From: Christensenellales bacterium
GTDB lineage: Bacteria > Bacillota > Clostridia > Christensenellales > Aristaeellaceae
DNA: 64,000 nucleotides
Assembly: GCA_050953005.1 (NCBI GenBank)
Contig: JBMNLV010000013.1
Coordinates: 29,465-93,464 of the forward strand
Direction: 5' to 3'
Below, one piece after another: positions 16,999-34,220 of the stretch. Position numbers and translations under genes: made by a program. A model generated the notes under the pieces. It was given only the letters and a program-made list of their open reading frames with translations. It was not told the DNA's origin and searched no databases. Within the stretch, counting starts at the first letter, position 1. Every line of letters starts with the position of its first letter.

Positions 16999-17934
16999 TT
17001 ACTCGACCCCGTACGGCCAGCTGATGATGCCGCCCAGGTCATACAGGTTGGTATAGCCCAGGTTGACCAGCTGCATGGCGCCTGTGCGGCTGCGCGCGCC
17101 GGAGCGGCAATACAGGTAGATCAGCGCGTCCTTGTCCGGCAGGCGCTCCTGCGCCAGGCCGGCCAGGCTGCCCAGGGGCAGGTTGATGGCGCCGGGGATA
17201 TGCCCGGCGGCGAATTCATAGGGCTCGCGCACATCCACCATAACGGGCGCGGCGCCCATATCCATGGCTTCCCTGGCCTGCTTGGGGCTGATGGCCCTGT
17301 ATTCAGCCTGGCGGGGCGCGGTCTGCTTGCCCGTGGCCCGGGCGCGGTCAAAATCAGCCTGTGTCAGGTGGCAGTATCCTCCCGGGTTCTTGATCAGGTA
17401 GTCCTGGTGGTAGTCCTCAGCCGGCCAGAAGCTGCCCAGCGGCCCGATCTCCACATGGAAGGCCGGGTGCCTGGCCTGTTCGGCCTTGGCCAGGCGCCGG
17501 ATGAGCTGCCCGTCCTCCTGCGTTTGGTAATATATGCCGGTCTGGTACTGGCTGCCGATGTCGTTTCCCTGACGGTTTTCCACTGTCGGGTCAATGGAGG
17601 AGAAGAACAGCGCCACCAGCTCCTCCAGGCTGACCAGGTCCGGGTTGAAGGTGACTTCCACCGTCTCCCGGTGGCCGGTGTCGCCGGTTTTGACCGCCTC
17701 GTAACCGGGGTTTTCCAGCGTGCCGTTGGCATAGCCGCTGCGCGCGTTGATGACGCCGGGCACCAGCGACATCATGTGCTCCACCCCCCAAAAGCAGCCT
17801 CCCGCGAAATAGACGGTCCCGGCCCGCGCCGGGGTCTCTTCCACGGACACCATGGCCTGCCTTGTGTTTTTTAACGCGTAAAACGCGCCCAGGGCAATCG
17901 CCATCACCAGAATAAACGCAATCAGCATTCTCAT
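16999..17934 (-). CDS. msrA: membrane-anchored peptide methionine sulfoxide reductase MsrA fused to a rhodanese domain
   Basis: Start MRMLIAFILVMAIALGAFYAL (TM anchor) preceded by a GGGAGG RBS. MsrA catalytic GCFWG. C-terminal rhodanese with active-site loop CRSGARS. The 462-aa ORF in the track also includes an unrelated IS66 fragment upstream. Confidence 0.85.
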   Translation of the reverse strand: MRMLIAFILVMAIALGAFYALKNTRQAMVSVEETPARAGTVYFAGGCFWGVEHMMSLVPGVINARSGYANGTLENPGYEAVKTGDTGHRETVEVTFNPDLVSLEELVALFFSSIDPTVENRQGNDIGSQYQTGIYYQTQEDGQLIRRLAKAEQARHPAFHVEIGPLGSFWPAEDYHQDYLIKNPGGYCHLTQADFDRARATGKQTAPRQAEYRAISPKQAREAMDMGAAPVMVDVREPYEFAAGHIPGAINLPLGSLAGLAQERLPDKDALIYLYCRSGARSRTGAMQLVNLGYTNLYDLGGIISWPYGVE

Positions 17935-18074
17935 GGGTTCCTCCCTCGGTGGCTTGGACCCCGCGTGGATCCGCCATGATTGTACCCGTTCCGGGCGCGT
18001 TTTATCCGGGCTTGCAAACTGACGCGGCAACATCAAATTTGGATGCAAATACAATAAGGTATTCAGTGAATTCT

Positions 18075-18765
18075 TCCGGATGCTCAGCCCTGCAGCTTTG
18101 CTGGTATTCAAACAAGACCAGTTGCTGTGGCACCTCACGCCCGGTACGGTACAGCCACACATATAACTTTTACTTTGCGCCTTTTTCCCCGGCTCGTTCA
18201 GCGCCTGCAAGGTGGTTTCATCCGCGTACAGTATATCTTGCTTCAGCAGTTCCGCCTTCATCCGCTCGTAGACCGGCTGAAGCCAAAGGGCTGTCGCTTT
18301 CAGCAGCCAGTTGGACATGGTTTGCCGGGACAGCGGTACACCTGCCCGGCTATATTCCTGTTCCTGGCGATATAGCGGAGAATACATGACTATTTCTAGG
18401 TCATGATATGAGCAATGGCCTCCGGCGTGGCAATGCTGCCCTTGATGACCGCCGGGTCTGCCTGAGCGGACTTTACCGGGGTTGTGATGTCATGCTCCTG
18501 ACAGTGTTAGCAGGTGTATTTGTGCATATGGGTTTCTTCCACTACAAACCTGGCCGGGATGATTTTCAGGCGCCTGGTAACATCCTTGCCGATGTCACTC
18601 ATTTGCCCCTGACACTGGGGGCATACACATTCCTCTTTCGTCAGGGTCTTCTCAATGACCTCTACCTCGATATCTTCCGGCAGTTTTTCCTGGGTGGAAC
18701 GGCGGCGCGCTTTCCACGCATGCGCTTTCACTGCGACTGTCCTACACTTGACTGTTAACATCACC
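18075..18765 (-). pseudogene. IS66-family transposase remnant (zinc-finger and first part of the DDE domain; lacks both ends)
   Basis: Segments VKAHAWKARRR..LPEDIEVEVIE..CPQCQGQMSDIGKDV..IPARFVVEETHMHKYTC, then YSPLYRQEQEYSRAGVPLSRQTMSNW...ADETTLQALNEPGKKAQSKSYM and, after a frameshift, WLYRTGREVPQQLVLFEYQQS..EHPEEF. Contains in-frame stop codons (TAA, TAG) and frameshifts. Homology stops near 18075. Confidence 0.75.
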
Positions 18766-18838
18766 CATGTTAACCTACAGCCAAGGAGGGATAAAGACAA
18801 GCTTTGCTCCACAACAAATAAGCAACTCAAGCTAATTT

Positions 18839-18990
18839 ATTCCAATCTTTATTATATCGTCGCACCGGGTCTTTGATTGCCCTACTATGTTAGTCGACCT
18901 CAACGTAGCTTAAGCTACGCCATCGGTTTCTTTCCTTGCAGGGCAATAAAATCCCTCGCCGCTTTAGATGCAATAAAGTTTTTCATTACA
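18839..18990 (+). repeat. interspersed repeat family A, copy 2 (AT-shifted variant)
   Basis: Alignable with 6161..6331 and 34067..34220. Contains the palindrome cgtagcttaagctacg at the conserved hairpin position. Confidence 0.6.
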
Positions 18991-19027
18991 TAAATCGTGT
19001 GATATTATTATCTTTAAAGGTGAATCG

Positions 19028-21400
19028 ATGAGTATTGTATACAATCCTTTGTTGATTGGAGACTATCCTTTATTTGAGGTAGCTTTTCTTCATGGTCATC
19101 ATCATTTTTCACTACAGGAGCATTCAAAAATTGAATTTATTTATGTACTCAAAGGAACGGTTACAGTTGTGACGAACGAGAAAGAATATTACCTGTCAAA
19201 GAAAAACTTTGTTCTTCTTTCGTCGCATCAACAGCACACTATTTCACCTTCTACTAAAGCACTCTTTGTTTCTATACGTTTTGCGGCAGATATTGAAAAA
19301 CGGTATTGTTCATTTTACGGTTTGGGGGGGTCTTGGGATGAAATTCGAAAAGAAGAAACAGAAAGAATCCAGATGACTTTCGAGAAAATGATCCTTTGGT
19401 TTCTTGATCAAAATCCAAAGAGTATTATGATTTGTCAGAGTTTATTTTTTGAACTAATTTACCTTTTTGCAAGCATATTTCAGAATAAAAATAGCAACAA
19501 TTCAGAAACAGAGGAAAGAAAACTCATAATTGAGAAATATTTAATGGAAAATTATCGTGCTCCTATCGGACTTTCTGATTTAGCAAAACATCTGCATCTT
19601 TCAGAAGTGTATTTATCAAAAATCTTTAAGCAAATGTTCGGAAAAAATTTCCATGATTACCTAAAGGGAATACGTTTGGAGGCTGCAAAAGAAGATCTTA
19701 TATATTTTGAAAATCGCAGAATTCTTCAGGTTGCTATAGAGAACGGATTTCCGAATATTTCCTCTTTTAACAATATCTTTAAAAAAAGTACAGGATTGAC
19801 TCCACAGGCCTTCCGATCACAACAACTACAACAAAAGAAGACCAATTTAGAAGATGATAAAGTAGTTTTACAAACTCTTTCAATTTTACAAAGTACATTA
19901 GATAAAGAAAAAGTGAAAATGAAAGTGATTGAGTGTATGGTAAATGAAGGCATGCCCTATGATAAGGGATGGGAGCATGCAATAAATGTTGGTAGAATAA
20001 CAGATTTGTTTCGCTTTGATATACAGAACCACATTCGACAGCTTTCGCGAGATTTCTCTTTTCGTTACTTGAGAATATGGGGGCTTTATGATGATGAACT
20101 TCATATCTTTTCTCGTTGGAGAAAAGAGAAGCATGACCAATCACTTCAATTTGATTTTTCCAGGTTGGACCGTATACTGGATTTTCTTGGAGAACTAAAG
20201 CTCATACCGTATATTGAGATGGGATTTAAGCCAAAGCTACTGATTCGGTCTGAAGGAGACGCGATCCTTCATGAGAATGCGGTTATTCCTTGGAAAAATC
20301 CTGAAGAGAGCCGCCTATTCTTTCGAAGTTTTTTTACTCATCTTACTCAACGTTATGGAAGCGAAGAAGTTGGAAAGTGGTATTTCGAGCTTTGGTATAA
20401 TTATTTTGATGAAAATGGCAGTACAGTTCAATACTATATTGAGCTCTTCTCTATAATCGAAGATGAGCTTAGACAGACAGTTCCATATGCAAAGCTAGGC
20501 GGAATTGGAGATTTCCCAGATTTAATGAGAGATTCGCTTCGCTCTGTCAGTACAAGATTTGATTTTTTATCAGCATACAGTTATTCGTTGTTTAATCGTT
20601 CTTCTTCTACAGAAAGAACAGCAATAAAAACCTTTGACCTGATGCCAACTATTGATCAACTACATGCGCTTGCAGCAGAAAACCCCAAAAGCCAAGAAAT
20701 CCATATTACAGAATGGAGCTCGTCTGTTTCAAGTAGAAATCAGATGAACGACAGTTCGGATAAAGCCTGCCATATTATTCAAGATTGTATATCCTCTATC
20801 GGGAAAATAGACATGCTTATATACTGGCATGCATCTGATTTGAATGCCGAATACAAGGACACTCAGAGTCCTCTGTTTGGTGGAGCTGGACTTTTGACTA
20901 TACATGGAATTCAAAAGCCAGTTTATTATGCTTTTCGTTTTTTGCATTATATGGGGTCCATTCTTCTTTGGAAAAACGAAGAGACGCTTATCACAAAAGA
21001 TATTTGGGGTGATTATCAGATCCTTTGTACATATGGAAGAGGACTGCGGCTGGAAGCTAATATATCATTTGAGGAAGATTTGCAGTATCTTTCAGAAGAA
21101 GATATTTATGAGCAAAAGGAGCAGGAAAAGCGAATCTTTGTATTGAAGAATATTTCTTCAGGAAGTTATAGAATCACAAGCAGGCTAATTAACCCAAAGA
21201 CAGGGAGCATTGATACTTTGTTCCGTGGATTAGGGAAGAAGGAAGATGAACTGTTAAAGGAGGATATTTTTCTACTGTCGAAGCGCTGTATTCCGTCTAT
21301 TATAACGGAAAAGGTAGAGTCATTAAATAACCAGCTTTCGGTTACTATTATTATGGAGCCTGGAGAATTTCGTTATATCAACATCGAACGAATCAAGTGA
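19028..21400 (+). CDS. AraC-family transcriptional regulator fused to a GH39-like glycoside-hydrolase-fold domain
   Basis: 790 aa. Has an N-terminal cupin-like sensor and an AraC HTH (LSDLAKHLHLSEVYLSKIFKQMFGKNFHDYLKGIRLEAAKEDL...GFPNISSFNNIFKKSTGLTPQAFR). The C-terminal ~500 aa follow the GH39 pattern (FRYLRIWGL, PYIEMGFKP, RYGSEEVGKWYFELW, IHITEWSS, GGAGLLTIHGIQKPVYYAFRFL). Confidence 0.75.
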   Translation: MSIVYNPLLIGDYPLFEVAFLHGHHHFSLQEHSKIEFIYVLKGTVTVVTNEKEYYLSKKNFVLLSSHQQHTISPSTKALFVSIRFAADIEKRYCSFYGLGGSWDEIRKEETERIQMTFEKMILWFLDQNPKSIMICQSLFFELIYLFASIFQNKNSNNSETEERKLIIEKYLMENYRAPIGLSDLAKHLHLSEVYLSKIFKQMFGKNFHDYLKGIRLEAAKEDLIYFENRRILQVAIENGFPNISSFNNIFKKSTGLTPQAFRSQQLQQKKTNLEDDKVVLQTLSILQSTLDKEKVKMKVIECMVNEGMPYDKGWEHAINVGRITDLFRFDIQNHIRQLSRDFSFRYLRIWGLYDDELHIFSRWRKEKHDQSLQFDFSRLDRILDFLGELKLIPYIEMGFKPKLLIRSEGDAILHENAVIPWKNPEESRLFFRSFFTHLTQRYGSEEVGKWYFELWYNYFDENGSTVQYYIELFSIIEDELRQTVPYAKLGGIGDFPDLMRDSLRSVSTRFDFLSAYSYSLFNRSSSTERTAIKTFDLMPTIDQLHALAAENPKSQEIHITEWSSSVSSRNQMNDSSDKACHIIQDCISSIGKIDMLIYWHASDLNAEYKDTQSPLFGGAGLLTIHGIQKPVYYAFRFLHYMGSILLWKNEETLITKDIWGDYQILCTYGRGLRLEANISFEEDLQYLSEEDIYEQKEQEKRIFVLKNISSGSYRITSRLINPKTGSIDTLFRGLGKKEDELLKEDIFLLSKRCIPSIITEKVESLNNQLSVTIIMEPGEFRYINIERIK

Positions 21401-21687
21401 TTTTTTTTCGAAGCATTTTGTAATAAGATTATCGGTAAAAGCATGCTAAGAAAATAGTAAGTTTCTTAACCTAGTTATATTTTTTATATGTCAATGAGAT
21501 AAAAAATCACCATAATTAAATCCCAACATACTAAAAAATGGTTAGATAATAACCAAATTTTGAAGTACCATTGCATTCAACAAATGGGAGGGAGGTGCCC
21601 CCAAATTGATGGGAAGTGCGGACAAAAAGAGTTTCATGATATTTCTCTTTTATCCACACTCTAGTAAAAAGAAAGGAGAAACGGTTT

Positions 21688-22686
21688 ATGGGTAGAATCA
21701 AAAGAGCAGTAAGCCTTTATAGCTTCCAGGATAGATATGTAAAAGGGATCATGCAGCTGGAAGATATGTTCGCATATCTGAAGGAGAACAACTGCGGGAT
21801 GGAGATTCTGACTGACCAGATGGTTCCAGGAGCTCCTCGTCCTACAGAGGAAACTTATGCCTGGTGGGATAATTTGATGAATAAATATCAAGTGACACCG
21901 GTAATCAATGATATTTTTGTCAATATCAATCTTTTTAAAGGACGGGAAGTTTCACCCAAGGAAGGAGCTAGCATGCTCATTGACGAGCTAAGGATGTCAA
22001 AAAGGCTAGGTTTTCCGATGGTTCGCTTACTATCCTTAACGCCTGTGTCAATCATTGAACGTGCATTGGATGAAGCAGAAAAACTAAATATTACCATAAC
22101 AGCAGAAATTCATGGAAGCATGTCCTTTGATAATCCCAACTCTGCTAATTTTATTAGACTGATGCGGGAAAGCAAATCCAGCAGACTGGGTCTTGTTATT
22201 GACACAGGTATTTTTTGCCGGAAGTTTCCACGTGCAGTCAGAATGTATCATAGTACACTGGGCACCAATGAAGCCGTTTGCCAGTTTGTGGATGATGTAT
22301 ATGACAGAGGCGAGGATATTTTGTCTCTAATTAAGAAAAATGGTGGACAAGCACCGGATGATTTAAAAAAACTCTACACTGGTCCTTATGACTCTGAATA
22401 CATAGATTTAGCTTGCACTTTTGAGAACGCTCCTATCAATATTCTTGATGAGTACTTGCCTCATGTCTGTCATTTCCATGGGAAAGTTTATGAGATGACT
22501 GAAAATGGGCAGGAATATTCAATTTCCTATCCAGAATTGATTGATTACCTGAAAGCTCATAATTATGATGGATATATTGCCACAGAATATGAAGGAAATC
22601 GCTACACATTGCCCGGTCATCCTGTGATCGAAATGGAACAGGTAAACGCTCATCAGAACTTATTACGTCAACTCTTAGGCGAATAA
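21688..22686 (+). CDS. xylose-isomerase-like TIM-barrel protein, candidate C-glycoside deglycosidase alpha subunit
   Basis: 332 aa, TIM-barrel isomerase/epimerase-like (MVRLLS, TAEIHG, HFHGKVYEM, YIATEYEGNR). Followed 13 nt later by a small DUF6379-like gene and, in the same island, a Gfo/Idh/MocA oxidoreductase. Confidence 0.6.
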   Translation: MGRIKRAVSLYSFQDRYVKGIMQLEDMFAYLKENNCGMEILTDQMVPGAPRPTEETYAWWDNLMNKYQVTPVINDIFVNINLFKGREVSPKEGASMLIDELRMSKRLGFPMVRLLSLTPVSIIERALDEAEKLNITITAEIHGSMSFDNPNSANFIRLMRESKSSRLGLVIDTGIFCRKFPRAVRMYHSTLGTNEAVCQFVDDVYDRGEDILSLIKKNGGQAPDDLKKLYTGPYDSEYIDLACTFENAPINILDEYLPHVCHFHGKVYEMTENGQEYSISYPELIDYLKAHNYDGYIATEYEGNRYTLPGHPVIEMEQVNAHQNLLRQLLGE

Positions 22687-22699
22687 GGGAGGTAGAATT

Positions 22700-23095
22700 A
22701 TGTTTGATAATTATATCTACATCGATGGTAGCTTAAAAAATATTATCCGCAATGGAAAAAAAGTCGGTTTTGAAATGAAAACAGGCATGCCCTATTATCG
22801 TGGCGTTCCCCTTTCTTTGGTTCGTGATCTATCAGTTGAAGTGGACGGAAAAATTTATGATAAAGAAAAGTTGCTTTTTAGTGTAGATAATGAGGAGTTT
22901 TTCTCGCTGAAAAAAATGGAGACTGTTTACAACATTAAATGGGAGTATGGTGTGCCGGCTACTGTTCGTGTTATGGAAGAAGGCGGACTGGAAAAAGGAG
23001 AACATAGAGTTAAACTCTATGTCAGTATCATAATTCATTACGTTCCTTTCCCTTCGGCTGGTACACGTACGGTGATAGACTTTGTTGATGAATAA
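22700..23095 (+). CDS. small beta-rich protein, candidate C-glycoside deglycosidase beta subunit (DUF6379-like)
   Basis: 131 aa: MFDNYIYIDGSLKNIIRNGKKVGFEMKTGMPYYRGVPLSLVRDLSVEVDGK...GGLEKGEHRVKL. Size, pairing with a TIM-barrel gene and sequence pattern recall CGD beta subunits. Assignment is from memory and needs an HMM check. Confidence 0.5.
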   Translation: MFDNYIYIDGSLKNIIRNGKKVGFEMKTGMPYYRGVPLSLVRDLSVEVDGKIYDKEKLLFSVDNEEFFSLKKMETVYNIKWEYGVPATVRVMEEGGLEKGEHRVKLYVSIIIHYVPFPSAGTRTVIDFVDE

Positions 23096-24587
23096 TGAAA
23101 GAGAATTGTCTATGGAAACGATTCTAGAACTGAAAAATATTACAAAGACTTTCGGAAAAGTAAAGGCACTGAGCAATGTAAGCATTGCTGTACGAAAAGG
23201 GGAAGTACATGCGCTGGTCGGAGGAAATGGTGCAGGTAAGTCTACCCTGATCAAGATTCTGACAGGTGCTCTCTCGCCTGATTCCGGGGAAATTATATTA
23301 AAAGGAAAGAAGTATAATTCTCTTACTCCATCAGAATCAATGAACGAAGGAATCTCCGTGGTTTATCAAGAGCTGAACCAGATGGAATCCATGACTGTAG
23401 CTGATAATATCTTCGTTGGGATACAAAAAAGTGGCTTTATAAACGACAAAGAACGAACTGCACAAACAGAAAAAATACTGGCTCGCTTTGAAACGAATAT
23501 AAGACCAACAGACATAATTGGGCATCTTTCTATAGCACAACGACAAATAGTCGAGATAACAAAAGCGATTTTTCATAAGGCAGATTTGATTATCATGGAT
23601 GAACCTACATCTTCGATCACAATGAAGGATCAGGAACTTCTCATGAACATCATACGCGGATTGCAGAAAGACGGAGTAACAATTATCTATATATCTCACC
23701 GCTTAGATGAGTTGTTTAAAATCTGCGACAGAGCTACTGTGCTTCGAGATGGTCAATACATTGATACCGTAGAAATTAGTAAAATAGATAAAAACGGTTT
23801 AATACGTCTCATGGTTGGGAGAGAACTCTCCGAAACTTTTCCCAAAACCTTTGGCCCATCTGATGAGATAGTTATGCGGGTTGATAAGTTGACTGGTAAC
23901 GGGGTCAAAAATATAACATTCGAACTTAGAAAAGGAGAGATTCTTGGCTTTGCAGGCTTGGTTGGTGCTGGGAGAACAGAGTTGATGCAAGTTATATTCG
24001 GAGCGGAAAAAAAAGAAAATGGTTCAATCACACTTAAAGGTAAAGAAGTAAATTTTCGGAATGTCCGGGACGCACTAGCTTCAGGAATTGCGATGATTTC
24101 AGAGGATAGGAAACAAGGTTGTATTCTGAGAAAACCGATTTTTTGGAATATCACACTTTCATGTCTTCGTAAGCTGAATGAATCGGCATTCATTGATCGA
24201 AAGAAGGAAGATATATTCACTAAAAAGATGATTCAAAAGCTAAGCATTAAGACTCCTTCTGTTACCAATCAAGTTGGAAATCTTTCTGGCGGGAATCAGC
24301 AAAAGGTAGTTATTGGCAAAGCACTTGCTGTGGATCCTGAGATATTGATTTTTGATGAACCTACCCGGGGTGTTGATGTTGGTGCCCGCTATGAAATATA
24401 TTCGGAAATTATAGAACTTACTAAGCAAGGCAAGTCTATAATCATGGTGTCCTCGGATATGGAGGAGTTGCTTGGGATTTCAGATCGGATTGTTATACTC
24501 CATGAGGGTAAGTTAGCTGGTATTGTTGAAAAAAATAAATTCATCCAAGAAACAGTTTTGCGATACGCATCTGGAGAGATAGTGTGA
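23082..24587 (+). CDS. sugar ABC transporter ATP-binding protein (two fused ABC domains, RbsA/MglA-type)
   Basis: 501 aa. Walker A GGNGAGKST, signature/Walker B LIIMDEPTSS, second signature LSGGNQQKV and ILIFDEPTRGVD. An alternative start METILELK lies at 23112. Confidence 0.9.
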   Translation: MLMNNERELSMETILELKNITKTFGKVKALSNVSIAVRKGEVHALVGGNGAGKSTLIKILTGALSPDSGEIILKGKKYNSLTPSESMNEGISVVYQELNQMESMTVADNIFVGIQKSGFINDKERTAQTEKILARFETNIRPTDIIGHLSIAQRQIVEITKAIFHKADLIIMDEPTSSITMKDQELLMNIIRGLQKDGVTIIYISHRLDELFKICDRATVLRDGQYIDTVEISKIDKNGLIRLMVGRELSETFPKTFGPSDEIVMRVDKLTGNGVKNITFELRKGEILGFAGLVGAGRTELMQVIFGAEKKENGSITLKGKEVNFRNVRDALASGIAMISEDRKQGCILRKPIFWNITLSCLRKLNESAFIDRKKEDIFTKKMIQKLSIKTPSVTNQVGNLSGGNQQKVVIGKALAVDPEILIFDEPTRGVDVGARYEIYSEIIELTKQGKSIIMVSSDMEELLGISDRIVILHEGKLAGIVEKNKFIQETVLRYASGEIV

Positions 24588-25534
24588 GAAAAATGAGCAA
24601 AAGAAGAACTTGTAATTTTGACATTGGGAAGCATTTATCTGATTTTTCTCTGGCTATATTATTAGTTTCACTTGTGATTGTATTTTCCATATGGACACCA
24701 AATTTTCTAGTGAGAGTTAACATTACTAATATCTTGGTACAGAATGTTCATATCGCAGTTTGTATGACTGGTGTCCTGATTATCATGATCAGCGGTGGAT
24801 GTGACCTGTCAATCGGATATCAGATTTCCTGTGTAGCAGTTCTGATGACTAAGCTGATTACAGAATATCAGGTAAATTCGGTTATCGCTATCATTCTTGG
24901 TGTTTTATTGGGAGCTCTTCTGGGGCTGTTTAACGGATTCATAGCTCAGAAGCTTAAGAGTCACCCTATGATGGTAACATTAGGTACAATGTCTATCTTT
25001 CAAGGCGTTAGTTATTTGATGAGCAATTCCAAGACTTACTTTAACCTGCCAACAACCTATAAAGTTCTTGGACAGTATCGTATTGGTGGATGGCTTCCAT
25101 TGAATGTGATTGTTATGGTTTTGATTCTAGTAGTGGTTTGGGTTCTGCTAGAAAAAACCTGTTTTGGACGTAACATTTATTCAGTGGGGGACAATCCAGA
25201 AGCCTCTCGTTTGGCTGGCTTGAATGTAAACAAAATCAAAATAATGGCTTTTGTCATTGCTGGAGTATTGGTTGGTATTTCTGCTGTTCTATTGAGTTCC
25301 CGTACAGGCTCTGCAGACTCAACCACCGGTCCTGGACTCGAAATCACCGGTATCACAGCATGCGTTCTAGGAGGTGTTGCACTTAAGGGTGGTGAAGGAA
25401 AACTCTGGCGTTGTATCTTTGCTGTATATGTTCTCGGTGTGCTTTCCAATGGTATGCAGTTAGTGGGCTTGGGAGTGTACCCTCAGTACATTGCAAAGGG
25501 TTGTAATTATGCTGACATCCATCTATCTCTCTAA
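24584..25534 (+). CDS. ribose-type ABC transporter permease (BPD_transp_2 family)
   Basis: 316 aa, multi-TM, RbsC-like (GGCDLSIGY, GRNIYSVGDNPEASRLAGLNV). The C-terminus may be frameshifted at the tt run at 25501-25502. The +1 frame reads ...KGVIMLTSIYLSNRKKKTA* ending at 25556. Confidence 0.85.
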   Translation: MRKMSKRRTCNFDIGKHLSDFSLAILLVSLVIVFSIWTPNFLVRVNITNILVQNVHIAVCMTGVLIIMISGGCDLSIGYQISCVAVLMTKLITEYQVNSVIAIILGVLLGALLGLFNGFIAQKLKSHPMMVTLGTMSIFQGVSYLMSNSKTYFNLPTTYKVLGQYRIGGWLPLNVIVMVLILVVVWVLLEKTCFGRNIYSVGDNPEASRLAGLNVNKIKIMAFVIAGVLVGISAVLLSSRTGSADSTTGPGLEITGITACVLGGVALKGGEGKLWRCIFAVYVLGVLSNGMQLVGLGVYPQYIAKGCNYADIHLSL

Positions 25535-25592
25535 TCGGAAAAAGAAGACTGCGTAATTTGCAGCTTCAAAATAATTAAGGAGGTATCTTAAA

Positions 25593-26668
25593 ATGAAACT
25601 TGCTAAGAAAGCTCTCTCTATCCTGGTGGCTGGTGCGATGATTCTCTCGATGTTGGTAGGTACTCTTGTTGTAGCTTACGCGGAAAGTCCCCAAAAAGCG
25701 TATAAAACAGGATTTGTGATTTATAGTACCGGGAATGAATTCTTCCAAGGTATGTATGACGCATTTGTTGAAACCTTTAGGAGCCATGGTTGGGAAGCAA
25801 CCGCTCAAAGTGGACAAGGCGATATAGCAAAGCAAATTGAGCAGATAGAGAATTACACTGCCATGGGTGTTGATGTACTTTTGGTATGGCCTACAGAGGG
25901 TGTCGCAGTTGATGACGCAATAAAAAATGCACAAAACAATGGTATAAAAGTTATGGAAATGGTTAATTGCGGAGAGAATTGGGATGTGATGCTGACCTCG
26001 GATATGAAAGAAATGCAGGAATACTGTAACAAAATGGCTTGCCTTTGGGTTGACAAAATGTTTCCGGATGCGGCCGATAGCACAGTAAATTGTGTTGTGA
26101 TTACTATGTACGCTAACCAGACCAATAAGGATCAGGCGGAAGTTGCGCTCCGCATTGGTGAATATGATTCCCGTATCAAAGTGCTGGGGGAATATACACT
26201 TACCCAAGAAACCATTGATGCTGGTGTTAAGGCTGCAGAAGACATTTGTAATCTGTATCCCGATTTCAACTTAATCATTTCTCCTCAGGGCACAGCTATG
26301 CTAGGTGTAAATCAGTATTTGACATCTATGGCTTCTCCTATCACAGATTATAGTAAAATGGCTATCTTTACTTGCAATGGTTCAGGGGAACAGATGTATC
26401 AAGCGATTAAAGCTTCCAAGAATAATGAAACACCCATGCGTGGTGCTCTGGTGACTAGTGGTGTGAAGCGATCTATGAAGATATCTACATGGTTGCCAGC
26501 GGGATTATGGATGGTTCCATTGAAACCCCTTTCATCTTTTATCCGCCTTACCTGGTCGTAGACGAGAACACTGCAAATGAAATGTTAGAAACAGACGATG
26601 TGCAGTCTCTTACTACTGATGATATTGACGTAGCATTTCCGTTCAGTCTATATAGCACAAAGGAATAA
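25593..26668 (+). pseudogene. periplasmic-binding-protein-type sugar ABC substrate-binding protein, 1-nt frameshift as sequenced
   Basis: Signal peptide MKLAKKALSILVAGAMILSMLVG and an RbsB/PBP1-like body. After ...LVTSGV (about 26465, gg run) the native-looking continuation EAIYEDIYMVASGIMDGSIETPFIFYPPYLVVDENTANEML...LYSTKE* is in the +1 frame and ends at 26668. Confidence 0.8.
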
Positions 26669-26689
26669 TGTAGAAGGAACAATGCCTGC

Positions 26690-27792
26690 ATGAGCAAACT
26701 GAAAATTGGCATCATTGGGTGCGGTGCCATTGCAAACCAAAAACATTTTCCAGCTATGAAAGATAATCAAGATCTTTGCGAAATCGTGGCTTTCTGTGAC
26801 ATCATTAAAGATCGTGCTAAAAGGGCAGCCATAGAATTCGGAACAAGCAATGCAAGGGTTTACGAGGATTATCGTGACTTGTTGGCTGACTCTGAGGCGG
26901 AAATAATTCATGTGCTTACACCCAATGTTTCACACTGTCTTATAACCGTTGATGCATTCGAGGCCGGTAAAAACGTCTACTGTGAAAAACCTATGGCTCA
27001 TAATTCCACAGATGCAAAAGCTATGATTAATGCTTGGAAACAAAGCGGAAAACAGTTCACTATGGATACCAGAATCGCTTCCGACCAGAAATTCAGAACT
27101 TAAAGAAAGCATGTGAGAAAGGAGACCTAGGCGATATTTACTATGGAAAAGCACATGCTGTTCGGCGGAGAGCTGTCCCTACATGGGGAGTGTTTCCGGA
27201 TAAATCCAAGCAGGGTGGAGGCCCATTGATTGACATCGGCACTCATGCGTTAGATATTACTCTCTGGTGCATGGATAATTACGACGTCGAAAGCGTTACA
27301 GGTAGTGTTTTCTATAAGCTGGGCAATCTGCCTCAAGCTACAGAAGGAAATGTTTTTGGTCCTTGGGATCCAGAAAAGTATGAGGTCGAGGATTCCGCAA
27401 TGGGTTTCATCAAGATGAAAAATGGCGCTGCAATTAATCTGGAAGCAGCTTGGGCAATTAATATGACGGAATCTAAAGAAGCCAGTACCACGTTATGCGG
27501 AACACTTGCCGGCGCAGAGATTCTCTCAGGAATGAGTTATCTGGAAGATCAGCTAATTTATAATCGTGGACGTAACGGTCAACTGATGGAGGAAAGAATT
27601 ACATCAGGTGGTAAAGTTGCCTACTTTGAAGGCGGTAGCAGAGATCCAGGAGTGATAGATAATCGTCAATGGCTCGAGGCAATACTCAATGATACAGAGC
27701 CATTGGTGAAGCCTGAGGAAGCACTCATAGTGACCTGTATTTTGGATGCTATCTATCAATCTGCTGAAAAGCACCAGGAAATTAGATTCTAA
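26690..27792 (+). pseudogene. Gfo/Idh/MocA family oxidoreductase, 1-nt frameshift as sequenced
   Basis: ORFs 26690..27103 (MSKLKIGIIGCGAIANQKHFPAM...VYCEKPMA) and 27034..27792 (GYQNRFRPEIQ...GGGPLIDIGTHALD...) are the two halves. Adding one G at 27064-27065 (atgg-a) gives ...GKQFTMGYQNRF.... Confidence 0.85.
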
Positions 27793-27845
27793 TACAAGGT
27801 TTATTGGGGGCGGGGCTGTAGCAAAACTCCAGTTCCACAACTGAG

Positions 27846-27894
27846 AAAAACAGAGCTTGAAGCAGCGAAAGCGGCGACATTGGCTCTGTTTTTT
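27846..27894 (+). terminator. possible intrinsic terminator at the island end
   Basis: aaaaacagagc ... gctctgtttttt. The 6-bp core stem has a long (26 nt) loop and is followed by a T run, so it is weak as a canonical terminator. Confidence 0.35.
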
Positions 27895-27915
27895 GGTAGA
27901 ATTGATGTGTGAAAA

Positions 27916-28345
27916 GTAAGCGTCAAACGCTTTTCTTTACTCTACATTCTTCTGGCGCGTTAATCAGCAACATTCCCGCTATCTGCTCCTCTACGCTCAG
28001 GTCCAGTTTTGGCGCCTCATGCATCCATCAGCCAAGCCAGGTAACGATAGGGATCCAGGCCGTTTTCTTTGCGGTTTCAACCATACTATAAATGACGGCA
28101 CTGGCTTCCGCGCCCTTGGGCACATTGGCGAACAGAAAATTCTTCCGGCCCATCACAAAGGGTTTGATGCTGCGTTCAGCCCGATTGTTGCTGATTTCAA
28201 GCCTGCTATCCTGCAGATAGTTGAGCAAAATGGGCTCAGCCAGATCCTTCCGCTTTCGCAGACGTTCTTCCGGCGGCAAGCTGCTGATCTCATTTTCAAT
28301 GGCAAACAGGCTGTTGCAATACTGCTTCCCGCGAAGAACTTAAAG
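27916..28345 (-). pseudogene. IS66-family transposase remnant (C-terminal part plus terminal inverted repeat)
   Basis: Hand translation: RGKQYCNSLFAIENEISSLPPEERLRKRK...LQDSRLEISNNRAERSIKPFVMGRKNFLFANVPKGAEASAVIYSMVETAK, then with frameshifts NGLDPYRYLAWLMDA and HEAPKLDLSVEEQIAGMLLINAPEECR. The element ends with ...cgcttac (plus strand gtaagcg at 27916), the GTAAGC terminus typical of IS66 IRs. Confidence 0.75.
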
Positions 28346-34066: not shown

Positions 34067-34220
34067 ATTCCAATCTTCATTGCATCGTCGCGCCGGATCT
34101 TTGATCGCCCTGCTGCGTCAGTCAACCTCAACGCAGCTAAAGCTACGCCGTCGGTTTCCTTCCTTGCGGGACAATTAAATCCCTCGCCGCTTTGGATGCA
34201 ATAAAGCTTTACATCGGTAT
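34067..34220 (+). repeat. interspersed repeat family A, copy 3 (uninterrupted)
   Basis: attccaatcttcattgcatcgtcgcgccggatctttgatcgccc...ccctcgccgctttggatgcaataaagctttacatcggtat. Its 3' end matches the sequence obtained by joining the two flanks of the IS at 6331/7945. Confidence 0.65.

What the first reader, a model, noticed from the sequence alone, without database searches (positions are those of the whole stretch)
19028..21400. AraC regulator fused to a GH39-like domain with the acid/base residue replaced
One 790-aa ORF combines a cupin-like sensor plus AraC HTH (first ~270 aa) with a ~500-aa domain that follows the GH39 pattern. In characterised GH39 beta-xylosidases the acid/base Glu lies in a conserved FE-x-W-N-E-P-N stretch. 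Here the aligned stretch reads FELWYNYF, with no Glu at that position. The nucleophile-region motif (ITEWS) is retained. This suggests a glycosidase fold recruited as a non-catalytic ligand sensor controlling the adjacent glycoside locus. That architecture has little experimental description.
Basis: partly seen in the sequence, partly recalled or inferred. Interest (0 to 1): 0.6.

Follow-up and report, generated by a model that had tools for sequence, protein, structure and literature searches.

The report
AraC regulator with dead GH39 sensor domain
This gene encodes a DNA-binding switch fused to a xylosidase-like enzyme body that has lost its acid/base catalytic residue. It most likely senses plant C-glycosides and turns on the adjacent sugar-removal operon. 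The design is common in gut bacteria but no paper I could find has studied it.

Summary
ORF 19028-21400 (+) encodes 790 aa: a cupin, an AraC double HTH, then a complete GH39 fold (Pfam E 2e-41; Foldseek TM 0.79-0.81 to GH39 beta-xylosidases).

- **Catalytic residues.** Asn458 (FELWYNYF) sits where the acid/base Glu160 of XynB1 lies. Asn159, His54 and His228 are also replaced. The nucleophile Glu (HITEWS, E562) is kept.
- **Family-wide remodelling.** Among 172 full-length relatives (representatives of clusters at 50% identity), the acid/base position is Asp in 50%, Asn in 10% and Glu in 8%. Canonical Asn-Glu occurs once. The nucleophile Glu is kept in 90%. In the clade of P0001, all eight other members have Asp, so Asn458 is a lineage-specific change.
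- **Context.** Eight of eleven relatives' loci examined, plus the window itself, carry C-glycoside deglycosidase genes (CGDB plus a xylose-isomerase-like subunit, seven also with a DgpA-like oxidoreductase).
- **Known relatives.** S. aureus AryK is a distant relative. NCBI labels homologues "GH39 family glycosyl hydrolase".
- **Origin.** The gene lies on a 9-kb low-GC island flanked by IS66 remnants and is absent from 23 congeneric genomes.

Best reading: a non-hydrolytic glycoside-sensing one-component regulator of the adjacent operon. It is a new member of a database-known family on which I found no experimental paper.

The parts
19028..21400 (+). Whole gene: 790-aa cupin / AraC HTH / GH39-like fusion (P0001)
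19091..19282 (+). N-terminal cupin (AraC_binding) domain, residues about 22-85
   Evidence: Pfam PF02311 E 4.8e-7 and Cupin_2; beta strands 16-85 in the model; Foldseek matches to ToxT/Rns over the first ~270 aa
19505..19840 (+). AraC/XylS double helix-turn-helix DNA-binding domain, residues about 160-271
   Evidence: HTH_18 E 8e-20, HTH_AraC E 5e-10. This is the most conserved domain in the family, with 40% mean pairwise identity.
19916..21007 (+). GH39-like (beta/alpha)8 barrel, residues about 297-660
   Evidence: PF01229 E 2.3e-41; phmmer to 1w91 E 4e-38; Foldseek; 31% mean pairwise identity in the family, above the cupin at 23%
21014..21391 (+). C-terminal beta-sandwich that completes the GH39 fold, residues about 663-788
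   Evidence: beta strands 663-788 with pLDDT 85-95; Foldseek alignments of about 518 columns cover whole 500-aa xylosidases
20399..20401 (+). Codon AAT = Asn458, at the position of the GH39 acid/base Glu (XynB1 Glu160). Asp in all eight other members of its clade.
20711..20713 (+). Codon for Glu562, the equivalent of the GH39 nucleophile (XynB1 Glu278), in HITEWS
   Evidence: Glu in 155 of 172 relatives
18980..19008 (+). Promoter-like site (TTTTCA-17-TG-TATTAT) before the regulator gene. It lies at the end of a ~150-bp host repeat copy (18839-18986).
   Evidence: This is a consensus match only, and site counts are not above shuffles.
21401..21687 (+). Intergenic region before the CGD operon and presumed target of the regulator. 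It has a weak -35/-10 match at 21488-21516 and an RBS AAAGGAGAAA at 21672-21681. No terminator follows the regulator gene on the + strand.
   Evidence: No operator motif is shared with related loci.
21688..27792 (+). Presumed regulated operon: CGD alpha-like TIM barrel, CGD beta (PF19906), ABC ATPase, permease, binding protein, DgpA-like GFO/IDH/MocA oxidoreductase
   Evidence: The same genes are intact on an independent contig, L015.

Best explanation
P0001 is a cytoplasmic one-component transcription regulator of the AraC/XylS family. It carries a complete GH39 glycosidase fold after the DNA-binding domain.

The enzyme body has been turned into a non-hydrolytic binding module. The acid/base Glu is replaced by Asn458, and the neighbouring Asn and two sugar-contacting His are replaced by Tyr, Trp and Tyr. 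Much of the rest of the pocket is kept: Arg349, Tyr519, the nucleophile Glu562, Trp600, Asp604 and Glu608.

Proposed mechanism:
1. A glycoside imported by the operon's ABC transporter binds in this pocket without being cleaved. The likeliest ligand is an aryl C-glycoside or its 3-keto form.
2. Occupancy changes the conformation or oligomeric state of the protein.
3. The AraC HTH then activates the promoter in 21401-21687. This switches on the CGD alpha/beta deglycosidase, the importer and the DgpA-like oxidoreductase.

Shown: the architecture, the residue replacements, their family-wide pattern and the conserved neighbourhood with CGD genes. Inferred: ligand binding by the GH39-like domain, the identity of the ligand, activation rather than repression, and the target promoter.
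For: - **Architecture and fold:**
- **Residue mapping by family-HMM alignment**: XynB1 Glu160 -> Asn458, Asn159 -> Tyr457, His54 -> Trp351, His228 -> Tyr517. Arg52, Tyr230, Glu278, Trp316 and Glu324 are kept. The same picture appears in pairwise alignments to three different GH39 xylosidases.
- **Family of 172 full-length relatives**: the acid/base position is Asp 86, Pro 19, Asn 18, Glu 13, Gly 11. Canonical Asn-Glu occurs once. The His54 position is Trp in 84%. The nucleophile Glu is kept in 90%, Asp604 in 100% and Arg349 in 99%.
- **Constraint:** the barrel is more conserved (31% mean pairwise identity) than the cupin (23%), so it is under selection.
- **Conserved neighbourhood with CGDB plus AP_endonuc_2:** this pair lies beside the regulator in the window. 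It also lies next to P0014, P0032, P0034, P0035, P0036 and P0039, six of them also with GFO/IDH/MocA. P0033 has the MFS/phloretin-hydrolase head of the same cluster type on a truncated contig. CGDB is otherwise rare, present in 2 of 41 related genomes.
- **Chemistry:** C-glycosides have a C-C bond that glycoside hydrolases cannot cut (stated in bioRxiv 10.1101/816074). A hydrolytically dead sugar pocket therefore suits such a ligand.
- **Literature gap:** C-deglycosylation is reported as inducible (Sanugul 2005, cited in PMC8563793; DfgCD induced by puerarin, PMC11170127). No regulator is described in the papers searched.
Against: - There are no experimental data for any member of this fusion family.
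- The N-terminal cupin is the classical AraC ligand site and is present, so the GH39-like domain need not be the sensor.
- Half of the family keeps a carboxylate (Asp) at the acid/base position and 90% keep the nucleophile. The family as a whole could therefore retain some chemistry.
- P0001 sits on a long branch and departs from the consensus at several positions conserved at 85-93%.
- In this assembly the operon carries single-base indels, so decay after transfer is possible.
- No operator motif or convincing promoter was found.
Confidence: 0.55

Rival explanations
1. Scaffold reading. The cupin domain is the only ligand sensor, as in AraC or RhaS. The GH39-like body serves only as an oligomerisation or stabilising module, since GH39 xylosidases are oligomers.
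For: A recognisable AraC_binding cupin is present, and the N-terminal 270 aa resemble ligand-binding ToxT/Rns. The acid/base position is variable in the family, as expected if the pocket has no role.
Against: The catalytic-face residues of the barrel are among the most conserved columns of the family: Arg349 99%, Glu454 97%, Glu562 90%, Trp563 88%, Asp604 100%. The barrel is more conserved than the cupin. A pure scaffold would not need the nucleophile Glu.
Confidence: 0.2
2. Trigger-enzyme reading. The domain is still a retaining glycosidase that uses another acid/base, or acts only on activated aryl glycosides that need little acid catalysis. Its turnover or glycosyl-enzyme state controls the HTH.
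For: The nucleophile Glu562, Tyr519, Trp600 and Glu608 are retained. Asp is at the acid/base position in half of the family and Glu in 8%. The acid/base mutant of XynB1 traps a covalent xylosyl intermediate with an activated substrate (2bfg title). Asp461 and Glu462 lie three to four residues downstream.
Against: P0001 itself has Asn at the position and has lost the Asn of the Asn-Glu pair, which all three GH39 xylosidases aligned here keep. It has also lost His54 and His228. The loop after strand 4 is four to five residues shorter. The linked operon handles C-glycosides, which no hydrolase cuts. Catenibacillus scindens carries 21 'GH39' genes yet tested negative for beta-glucosidase and xylosidase (PMC11170127).
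Confidence: 0.1
3. Decay reading. The regulator is a relic on a recently transferred island. The Asp-to-Asn change and the long branch reflect relaxed constraint, and the cassette is not functional in this host.
For: The island has 33-44% GC in a 60-66% GC genome, is flanked by IS66 remnants and is absent from 23 congeners. P0001 alone in its clade has Asn. It departs from the consensus at conserved positions. The window's assembly has 1-bp indels that split the DgpA-like gene and shorten the binding protein.
Against: The 790-codon frame is intact, and so is the copy in an independent sample that differs by one residue. That sample has all operon genes intact. With four indels against one substitution in 9.25 kb, the indels look like assembly errors. 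All invariant family columns are kept in P0001.
Confidence: 0.1

Closest known systems
GH39 beta-xylosidases with solved structures: G. stearothermophilus XynB1 (1w91, 2bs9, 2bfg), also 6uqj, 8i0j, 1px8, 6yyh, 4ekj
   Same: The whole fold is shared: a (beta/alpha)8 barrel plus beta-sandwich, about 21% identity, TM 0.79-0.81. The nucleophile motif T-E-[YW]-N/S is kept, together with Arg52, Tyr230, Trp316 and Glu324 equivalents.
   Different: There is no Asn-Glu-Pro acid/base motif (Tyr-Asn-Tyr instead). His54 -> Trp and His228 -> Tyr. The loop after strand 4 is shorter. The domain is fused behind a cupin and an AraC HTH. It is therefore not a canonical catalytic member.
S. aureus AryK (NCBIfam NF047455), with Rsp as a weaker match: long AraC/XylS regulators with an N-terminal HTH and a large divergent C-terminal region (PMC3922988, PMC7241556)
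   Same: The order of parts is the same. P0001 matches the AryK model over the cupin, the HTH and the first third of the barrel (residues 24-390 to model positions 12-393, E 5e-36). All 24 aligned relatives match, the best at 1e-75.
   Different: The score is far below the AryK cut-off (124 against 850 bits), so this is not an orthologue. The match stops at about model position 400, so homology of the rest of AryK's C-terminal region was not shown here. AryK affects toxin and central-metabolism genes, not a glycoside operon.
Unnamed family of cupin-AraC-GH39-like fusions of gut and rumen Firmicutes, labelled 'GH39 family glycosyl hydrolase' by NCBI (e.g. Enterocloster bolteae P0014, Streptococcus orisasini P0025)
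   Same: Full-length alignment at 25-35% identity, the same Pfam architecture, the same remodelled pocket, and in many cases the same CGD neighbourhood.
   Different: The nearest relative is only 35% identical. Asn rather than the clade's Asp sits at the acid/base position. It resides on a foreign island in a high-GC host.
Regulators built on an enzyme fold that senses rather than converts: MocR/GabR (aminotransferase fold) and ROK repressors NagC/Mlc (sugar-kinase fold). This comparison rests on my own knowledge.
   Same: The logic is the same: an HTH fused to a complete enzyme-derived domain whose substrate pocket is reused for effector binding.
   Different: The folds and DNA-binding families are unrelated. 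This is an analogy of principle only, and it was not tested here.

Membership tests
CAZy GH39 (catalytic glycoside hydrolase) | (beta/alpha)8 barrel plus C-terminal beta-sandwich of clan GH-A / GH39 | tested here: met
   PF01229 E 2.3e-41; Foldseek TM 0.79-0.81 to ten GH39 xylosidase chains
CAZy GH39 (catalytic glycoside hydrolase) | Acid/base Glu in the Asn-Glu-Pro motif after strand 4 (XynB1 Glu160) | tested here: not met
   Asn458 aligns with Glu160 and Tyr457 with Asn159. No Glu is placed there in alignments to XynB1, 6uqj or 8i0j.
CAZy GH39 (catalytic glycoside hydrolase) | Nucleophile Glu after strand 7 (XynB1 Glu278, T-E-Y-N) | tested here: met
   Glu562 in HITEWS; Glu in 90% of the family
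CAZy GH39 (catalytic glycoside hydrolase) | Sugar-contacting His54 and His228. Their roles are recalled from the XynB structure papers and were not checked here. | tested here: not met
   Trp351 and Tyr517 in P0001. All three distinct xylosidases aligned have His at both positions.
CAZy GH39 (catalytic glycoside hydrolase) | Measurable glycosidase activity | not testable with these tools
   This needs an enzyme assay.
AraC/XylS transcription regulators | Two helix-turn-helix motifs in a conserved DNA-binding domain of about 100 aa | tested here: met
   HTH_18 E 8e-20 and HTH_AraC E 5e-10, both above cut-off; matches to MarA, SoxS, Rob and AraC DNA-binding domains in the PDB
AraC/XylS transcription regulators | Cupin-type AraC_binding companion domain | tested here: met
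   PF02311, 30 bits against a cut-off of 21.1; ToxT/Rns-like fold of the first ~270 aa
AraC/XylS transcription regulators | Binds DNA and controls a promoter | not testable with these tools
   Only a conserved neighbourhood supports a target. No operator motif was found.
AryK (NCBIfam NF047455 equivalog) | Full-length score above the curated cut-off of 850 bits | tested here: not met
   124 bits, covering model positions 12-393 of 759 only
Cupin-AraC-GH39-like fusion family (unnamed) | End-to-end alignment with the same three-part architecture | tested here: met
   The best 150 representatives are almost all 780-830 aa and mostly align over about residues 30-787. The 24 nearest all carry PF12833 plus PF01229.
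Cupin-AraC-GH39-like fusion family (unnamed) | Remodelled pocket: Trp at the His54 position, no Asn-Glu pair, nucleophile Glu kept | tested here: met
   P0001 has Asn where its clade has Asp.

The most novel reading that the evidence does not exclude
The clade containing P0001 could be the long-sought inducer receptor for gut C-glycoside deglycosylation. A GH39 xylosidase body would have been converted into a cytoplasmic receptor that recognises intact aryl C-glycosides (or their 3-keto forms) in the former -1/+1 subsites, using the retained nucleophile Glu as a hydroxyl-binding residue. It would directly drive dgp/dfg-type operons.

A corollary is that the strikingly high 'GH39' counts reported for C-deglycosylating Lachnospiraceae such as Catenibacillus are mostly regulators, not enzymes.

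A bolder and less likely extension (about 5%): with activated O-aryl glycosides, the acid/base-less pocket forms a long-lived covalent glycosyl-Glu562 adduct that acts as the signal.
Probability: 0.3. Interest if true: 0.7.

Novelty: new member of a known kind. Interest (0 to 1): 0.42.

Why it matters
- **A candidate regulator for an inducible pathway.** Gut bacteria remove sugars from dietary and medicinal C-glycosides (puerarin, vitexin, orientin, mangiferin) through inducible DgpA/DgpBC-type enzymes. No regulator or sensor is described in the papers I could search. A conserved pairing of these operons with one clade of AraC-GH39-like proteins gives a concrete, testable candidate.
- **CAZyme counts.** Proteins of this family are annotated and counted as GH39 hydrolases. 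If they are regulators, GH39 counts in CAZyme surveys of gut Firmicutes are inflated.
- **A model for related virulence regulators.** The unexplained large C-terminal region of the staphylococcal regulator AryK gains a structural model for at least its first part.
- **Mobility.** The gene sits on a mobile 9-kb cassette, so sensor, importer and enzymes travel together between distant lineages.

Tried and rejected
- **Operator search.** I looked for 12-mers with up to 2 mismatches in the regulator-to-operon intergenic regions of six related loci. Only the A-rich ribosome-binding region was shared.
- **Promoter/terminator scan of 18300-21800.** Promoter-like sites were not above shuffles (12 against 10.1), and no + strand terminator follows the regulator. 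Repeats in 21390-21700 are short and AT-rich and were not judged meaningful.
- **The search for related loci.** It failed with alignment A1 because no conserved stretch was available. With P0001 it returned only an unrelated AraC in genome contigs.
- **The look-up of sequencing runs.** Read support for the island junctions and expression could not be checked.
- **Organism name.** It could not be obtained from cluster look-ups. 'Christensenellales' comes only from an earlier unchecked note.
- **Model coordinates.** They are not exposed, so no pocket distances were measured.
- **Glu454 of FELW as a displaced acid/base.** I considered this and rejected it. Glu454 aligns with the non-catalytic Glu157 of XynB1, which precedes the Trp in all GH39 sequences seen.
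- **Chimeric assembly as the cause of the low-GC block.** I considered this and rejected it. An independent 9,253-bp contig from another sample reproduces 18661-27911 at 99.95% identity.
Full report
**1. What is there**

The ORF 19028..21400 on the + strand is open for 790 codons. It starts at an ATG preceded by AAAGGTGA. Pfam finds an AraC_binding/cupin domain at residues 22-77 and the AraC double helix-turn-helix at 185-264 (HTH_18, E 8e-20). It also finds Glyco_hydro_39 at 308-660 (E 2.3e-41, 142 bits against a cut-off of 26).

The best solved structures by sequence are GH39 beta-xylosidases. Geobacillus stearothermophilus XynB1 (1w91, 2bs9, 2bfg) leads at E 4e-38.

An AlphaFold2 model built on 24 relatives has mean pLDDT 77. 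It shows:
- a beta-rich cupin (residues 16-85);
- a helical linker;
- the HTH domain (160-271);
- a long connecting helix (275-293);
- a (beta/alpha)8 barrel (297-660);
- a beta-sandwich (663-788).

Foldseek aligns about 518 columns of the model to whole 500-aa GH39 xylosidases, with TM-score 0.79-0.81 normalised to the target. The N-terminal 270 residues match ToxT and Rns. The protein therefore carries an entire GH39 enzyme body behind a complete AraC regulator.

**2. The catalytic residues**

In the alignments to XynB1, the segment FEVWNEPNLVNFW faces FELWY-----NYF. PDB entry 2bfg differs from the wild type exactly at the Glu of WNEPN, reading WNAPN. Its title says it carries a covalently bound xyloside. 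Counting along the chain gives Glu160 and Glu278, the residues I recall as acid/base and nucleophile of XynB1.

I then aligned XynB1 to an HMM built from 172 fusion proteins. This profile alignment is ungapped across the motif and gives:

| XynB1 residue | P0001 residue | Status |
|---|---|---|
| Asn159 | Tyr457 | replaced |
| Glu160 (acid/base) | Asn458 | replaced |
| Pro161 | Tyr459 | replaced |
| His54 | Trp351 | replaced |
| His228 | Tyr517 | replaced |
| Arg52 | Arg349 | kept |
| Tyr230 | Tyr519 | kept |
| Glu278 (nucleophile) | Glu562 | kept |
| Trp316 | Trp600 | kept |
| Glu324 | Glu608 | kept |

Two further GH39 xylosidases (6uqj, 8i0j) also read FEVWNEPN, R-x-H and T-H-x-Y at these places. 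The roles of His54 and His228 in sugar binding are from my memory of the XynB structure papers and were not checked here.

**3. The replacement is a family trait**

A full HMMER scan of 1.84 billion representative proteins gave 889 clusters with E<1e-30. The best 150 are almost all 780-830 aa, and most align over about residues 30-787. The nearest relative is only 35% identical.

I located the motif with a small HMM in 172 fusion proteins:

| Position (XynB1 numbering) | Residues in the 172 relatives |
|---|---|
| Acid/base (Glu160) | Asp 86, Pro 19, Asn 18, Glu 13, Gly 11 |
| Preceding residue (Asn159) | Lys, Tyr, Arg or Phe; Asn in only 6% |
| Canonical Asn-Glu pair | 1 of 172 |
| His54 | Trp 84% |
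| His228 | Tyr 50% |
| Nucleophile (Glu278) | Glu 90% |
| Asp604 (P0001 numbering) | Asp 100% |
| Arg349 (P0001 numbering) | Arg 99% |
| Glu454 (P0001 numbering) | Glu 97% |

The barrel has a higher mean pairwise identity (31%) than the cupin (23%) or the linker (21%). Only the HTH is higher, at 40%. The enzyme-derived domain is therefore under purifying selection, with a remodelled but conserved pocket.

In a FastTree phylogeny, P0001 falls in a clade of nine (support 0.99). All eight other members read W-[YF]-D, so Asn458 (codon AAT, one transition from GAT) is a lineage-specific Asp-to-Asn change.

**4. Neighbourhood**

Downstream on the same strand lie the following genes:
- a xylose-isomerase-like TIM barrel (21688-22686);
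- a C-glycoside deglycosidase beta subunit (PF19906, E 1.5e-34; 22700-23095);
- an ABC ATPase, a permease and a binding protein;
- a GFO/IDH/MocA oxidoreductase.

This is the DgpA/DgpB/DgpC type of cassette described for strain PUE (bioRxiv 10.1101/816074; PMC8563793).

I looked up the contigs of ten relatives:
- **P0014 (E. bolteae, 27% identity), P0032, P0034, P0035, P0036, P0039:** CGDB plus AP_endonuc_2 lie next to or near the regulator. All but P0032 also have GFO/IDH/MocA, and all have a transporter.
- **P0033:** it has the MFS/phloretin-hydrolase head of the P0034-type cluster on a contig that ends there.
- **P0038:** it sits by a GH106.
- **P0003 and a paralogue 3.4 kb upstream of it:** these sit by a flavoprotein/SnoaL/Fe-S cluster and by a GH43.

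CGDB occurs in only 2 of 41 related genomes, so the pairing is not chance. This supports the view that the regulator controls the adjacent operon. It also suggests that its wider family serves glycoside and flavonoid loci.

**5. Mechanism proposed**

The protein has no signal peptide, and the operon encodes an importer. The likely effector is therefore an imported glycoside.

A glycoside hydrolase cannot cleave the C-C bond of a C-glycoside. A GH39 pocket without an acid/base residue, but with its sugar-binding frame largely intact, is a plausible receptor for such a compound. I propose that occupancy of this pocket controls the AraC HTH and activates a promoter in 21401-21687.

The parts, the residue states and the synteny are shown. 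Ligand binding, ligand identity, the sign of regulation and the operator are inferred. A motif search across six related intergenic regions recovered only the ribosome-binding region. The promoter-like matches are no more frequent than in shuffled sequence.

The rival readings are: the cupin as sole sensor with the barrel as scaffold; residual or covalent glycosidase chemistry; and a decaying relic. They are weighed in the Rival explanations section.

**6. What is known**

- I found no paper on AraC-GH39 fusions and none on a regulator of dgp/dfg clusters.
- C-deglycosylation is reported as inducible (references in PMC8563793; PMC11170127).
- The Catenibacillus genome paper notes 21 and 28 'GH39' genes, an unusually high number. 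It also notes that C. scindens tested negative for beta-glucosidase and xylosidase (PMC11170127). This would fit if many of these genes are regulators of this family, but that is my inference and it is untested.
- NCBIfam's model of S. aureus AryK matches P0001 over the cupin, the HTH and the first third of the barrel (E 5e-36). It matches all 24 aligned relatives, the best at 1e-75. The scores are far below the equivalog cut-off, and the match stops near model position 400.
- AryK was found genetically as a modulator of Hla and virulence (PMC3922988). The staphylococcal long AraC proteins are described as having a divergent C-terminal region of presumed signal recognition (PMC7241556).
- NCBI labels homologues 'GH39 family glycosyl hydrolase'.
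- Earlier notes of this scan report the same architecture in several other genomes. Some copies have the WNEP motif intact and some have lost it. I treated these notes as leads only.

**7. Setting in the genome**

- The block from about 18,800 to 27,950 has 33-44% GC, against 60-66% on both sides.
- It is bracketed by IS66-family transposase remnants on the minus strand: a zinc-finger and early DDE part at 18836-18160, and a C-terminal part at 28339-28028.
- The regulator and CGDB are both absent from 23 genomes of the same genus.
- An independent 9,253-bp contig from run SRR13001970 reproduces 18661-27911 at 99.95% identity, so the island is not an assembly chimera. That contig differs by one substitution (Val48Leu in the regulator) and four single-base indels. 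It has an intact 367-aa DgpA-like gene and a 358-aa binding protein.
- In a sample of 300 genomes of the same class, 4 others had a full-length relative at E<=1e-40. This is a floor, because only three candidates per genome were scored.

**8. Verdict**

This is a new, divergent member of a database-known family on which I found no experimental paper.

The value added here has three parts: the family-wide pattern of pocket remodelling; the Asp-to-Asn change specific to this gene; and the recurrent pairing of its clade with C-glycoside deglycosidase operons. Together these nominate a testable sensor for an inducible pathway whose regulator is unknown.

Noticed in passing
window 18,800-27,950: A low-GC island (33-44% GC against 60-66% in the flanks) holds exactly the regulator and the CGD operon. 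Both are absent from 23 same-genus genomes. The block is reproduced at 99.95% identity on an independent 9,253-bp contig (L015, SRR13001970).
   Followed up: yes
window 18160-18836 (-) and 28028-28339 (-): Two IS66-family transposase remnants in the same orientation bracket the island. The left one holds the zinc-finger and early DDE part; the right one holds the C-terminal part (ISNNRAERSIKPFVMGRKNFLF...). The left remnant is read through into the host msrA-rhodanese ORF 16999-18387, which gives a spurious IS66/PMSR/rhodanese 'fusion'.
   Followed up: partly
window 25501, 26477, 26674, 27064: There are four single-base indels relative to the independent contig L015. In the window they split the DgpA-like oxidoreductase into 26690-27103 and 27034-27792, shorten the binding protein (322 against 358 aa) and alter the permease end. 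With four indels against one substitution, they look like assembly errors rather than pseudogenes, but reads could not be checked.
   Followed up: partly
window 18839-18986, 34067-34214, 6157-6287: A ~150-bp interspersed repeat has a copy directly upstream of the regulator gene, between the IS66 remnant and the start codon (86% and 72% identity to the other two copies). The regulator's promoter-like site lies at its end.
   Followed up: partly
L004 4143-6566 and 10001-12403: Two paralogous cupin-AraC-GH39-like genes lie 3.4 kb apart on one metagenomic contig. One precedes a GH43. The other precedes a flavoprotein/SnoaL/Fe-S/MFS cluster that looks like flavonoid aglycone metabolism.
   Followed up: no
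L016 10666-15396 and L008 7468-9587: In two relatives the regulated cluster begins with an MFS transporter and a DAPG/phloretin-hydrolase family gene. In L016 these are followed by CGD genes. This suggests loci for C-glycosylated dihydrochalcones or similar compounds.
   Followed up: no
literature, PMC11170127: Catenibacillus genomes are reported to carry 21 and 28 'GH39' genes while C. scindens lacks measurable beta-glucosidase and xylosidase activity. Many of these genes may be regulators of this family.
   Followed up: no
G000 contig C6 136229-136540 (L002): This is the only other GH39-like hit in the genome. It is weak (26.6 bits, profile positions 180-280) and lies in a 502-aa open frame. 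I did not examine it.
   Followed up: no
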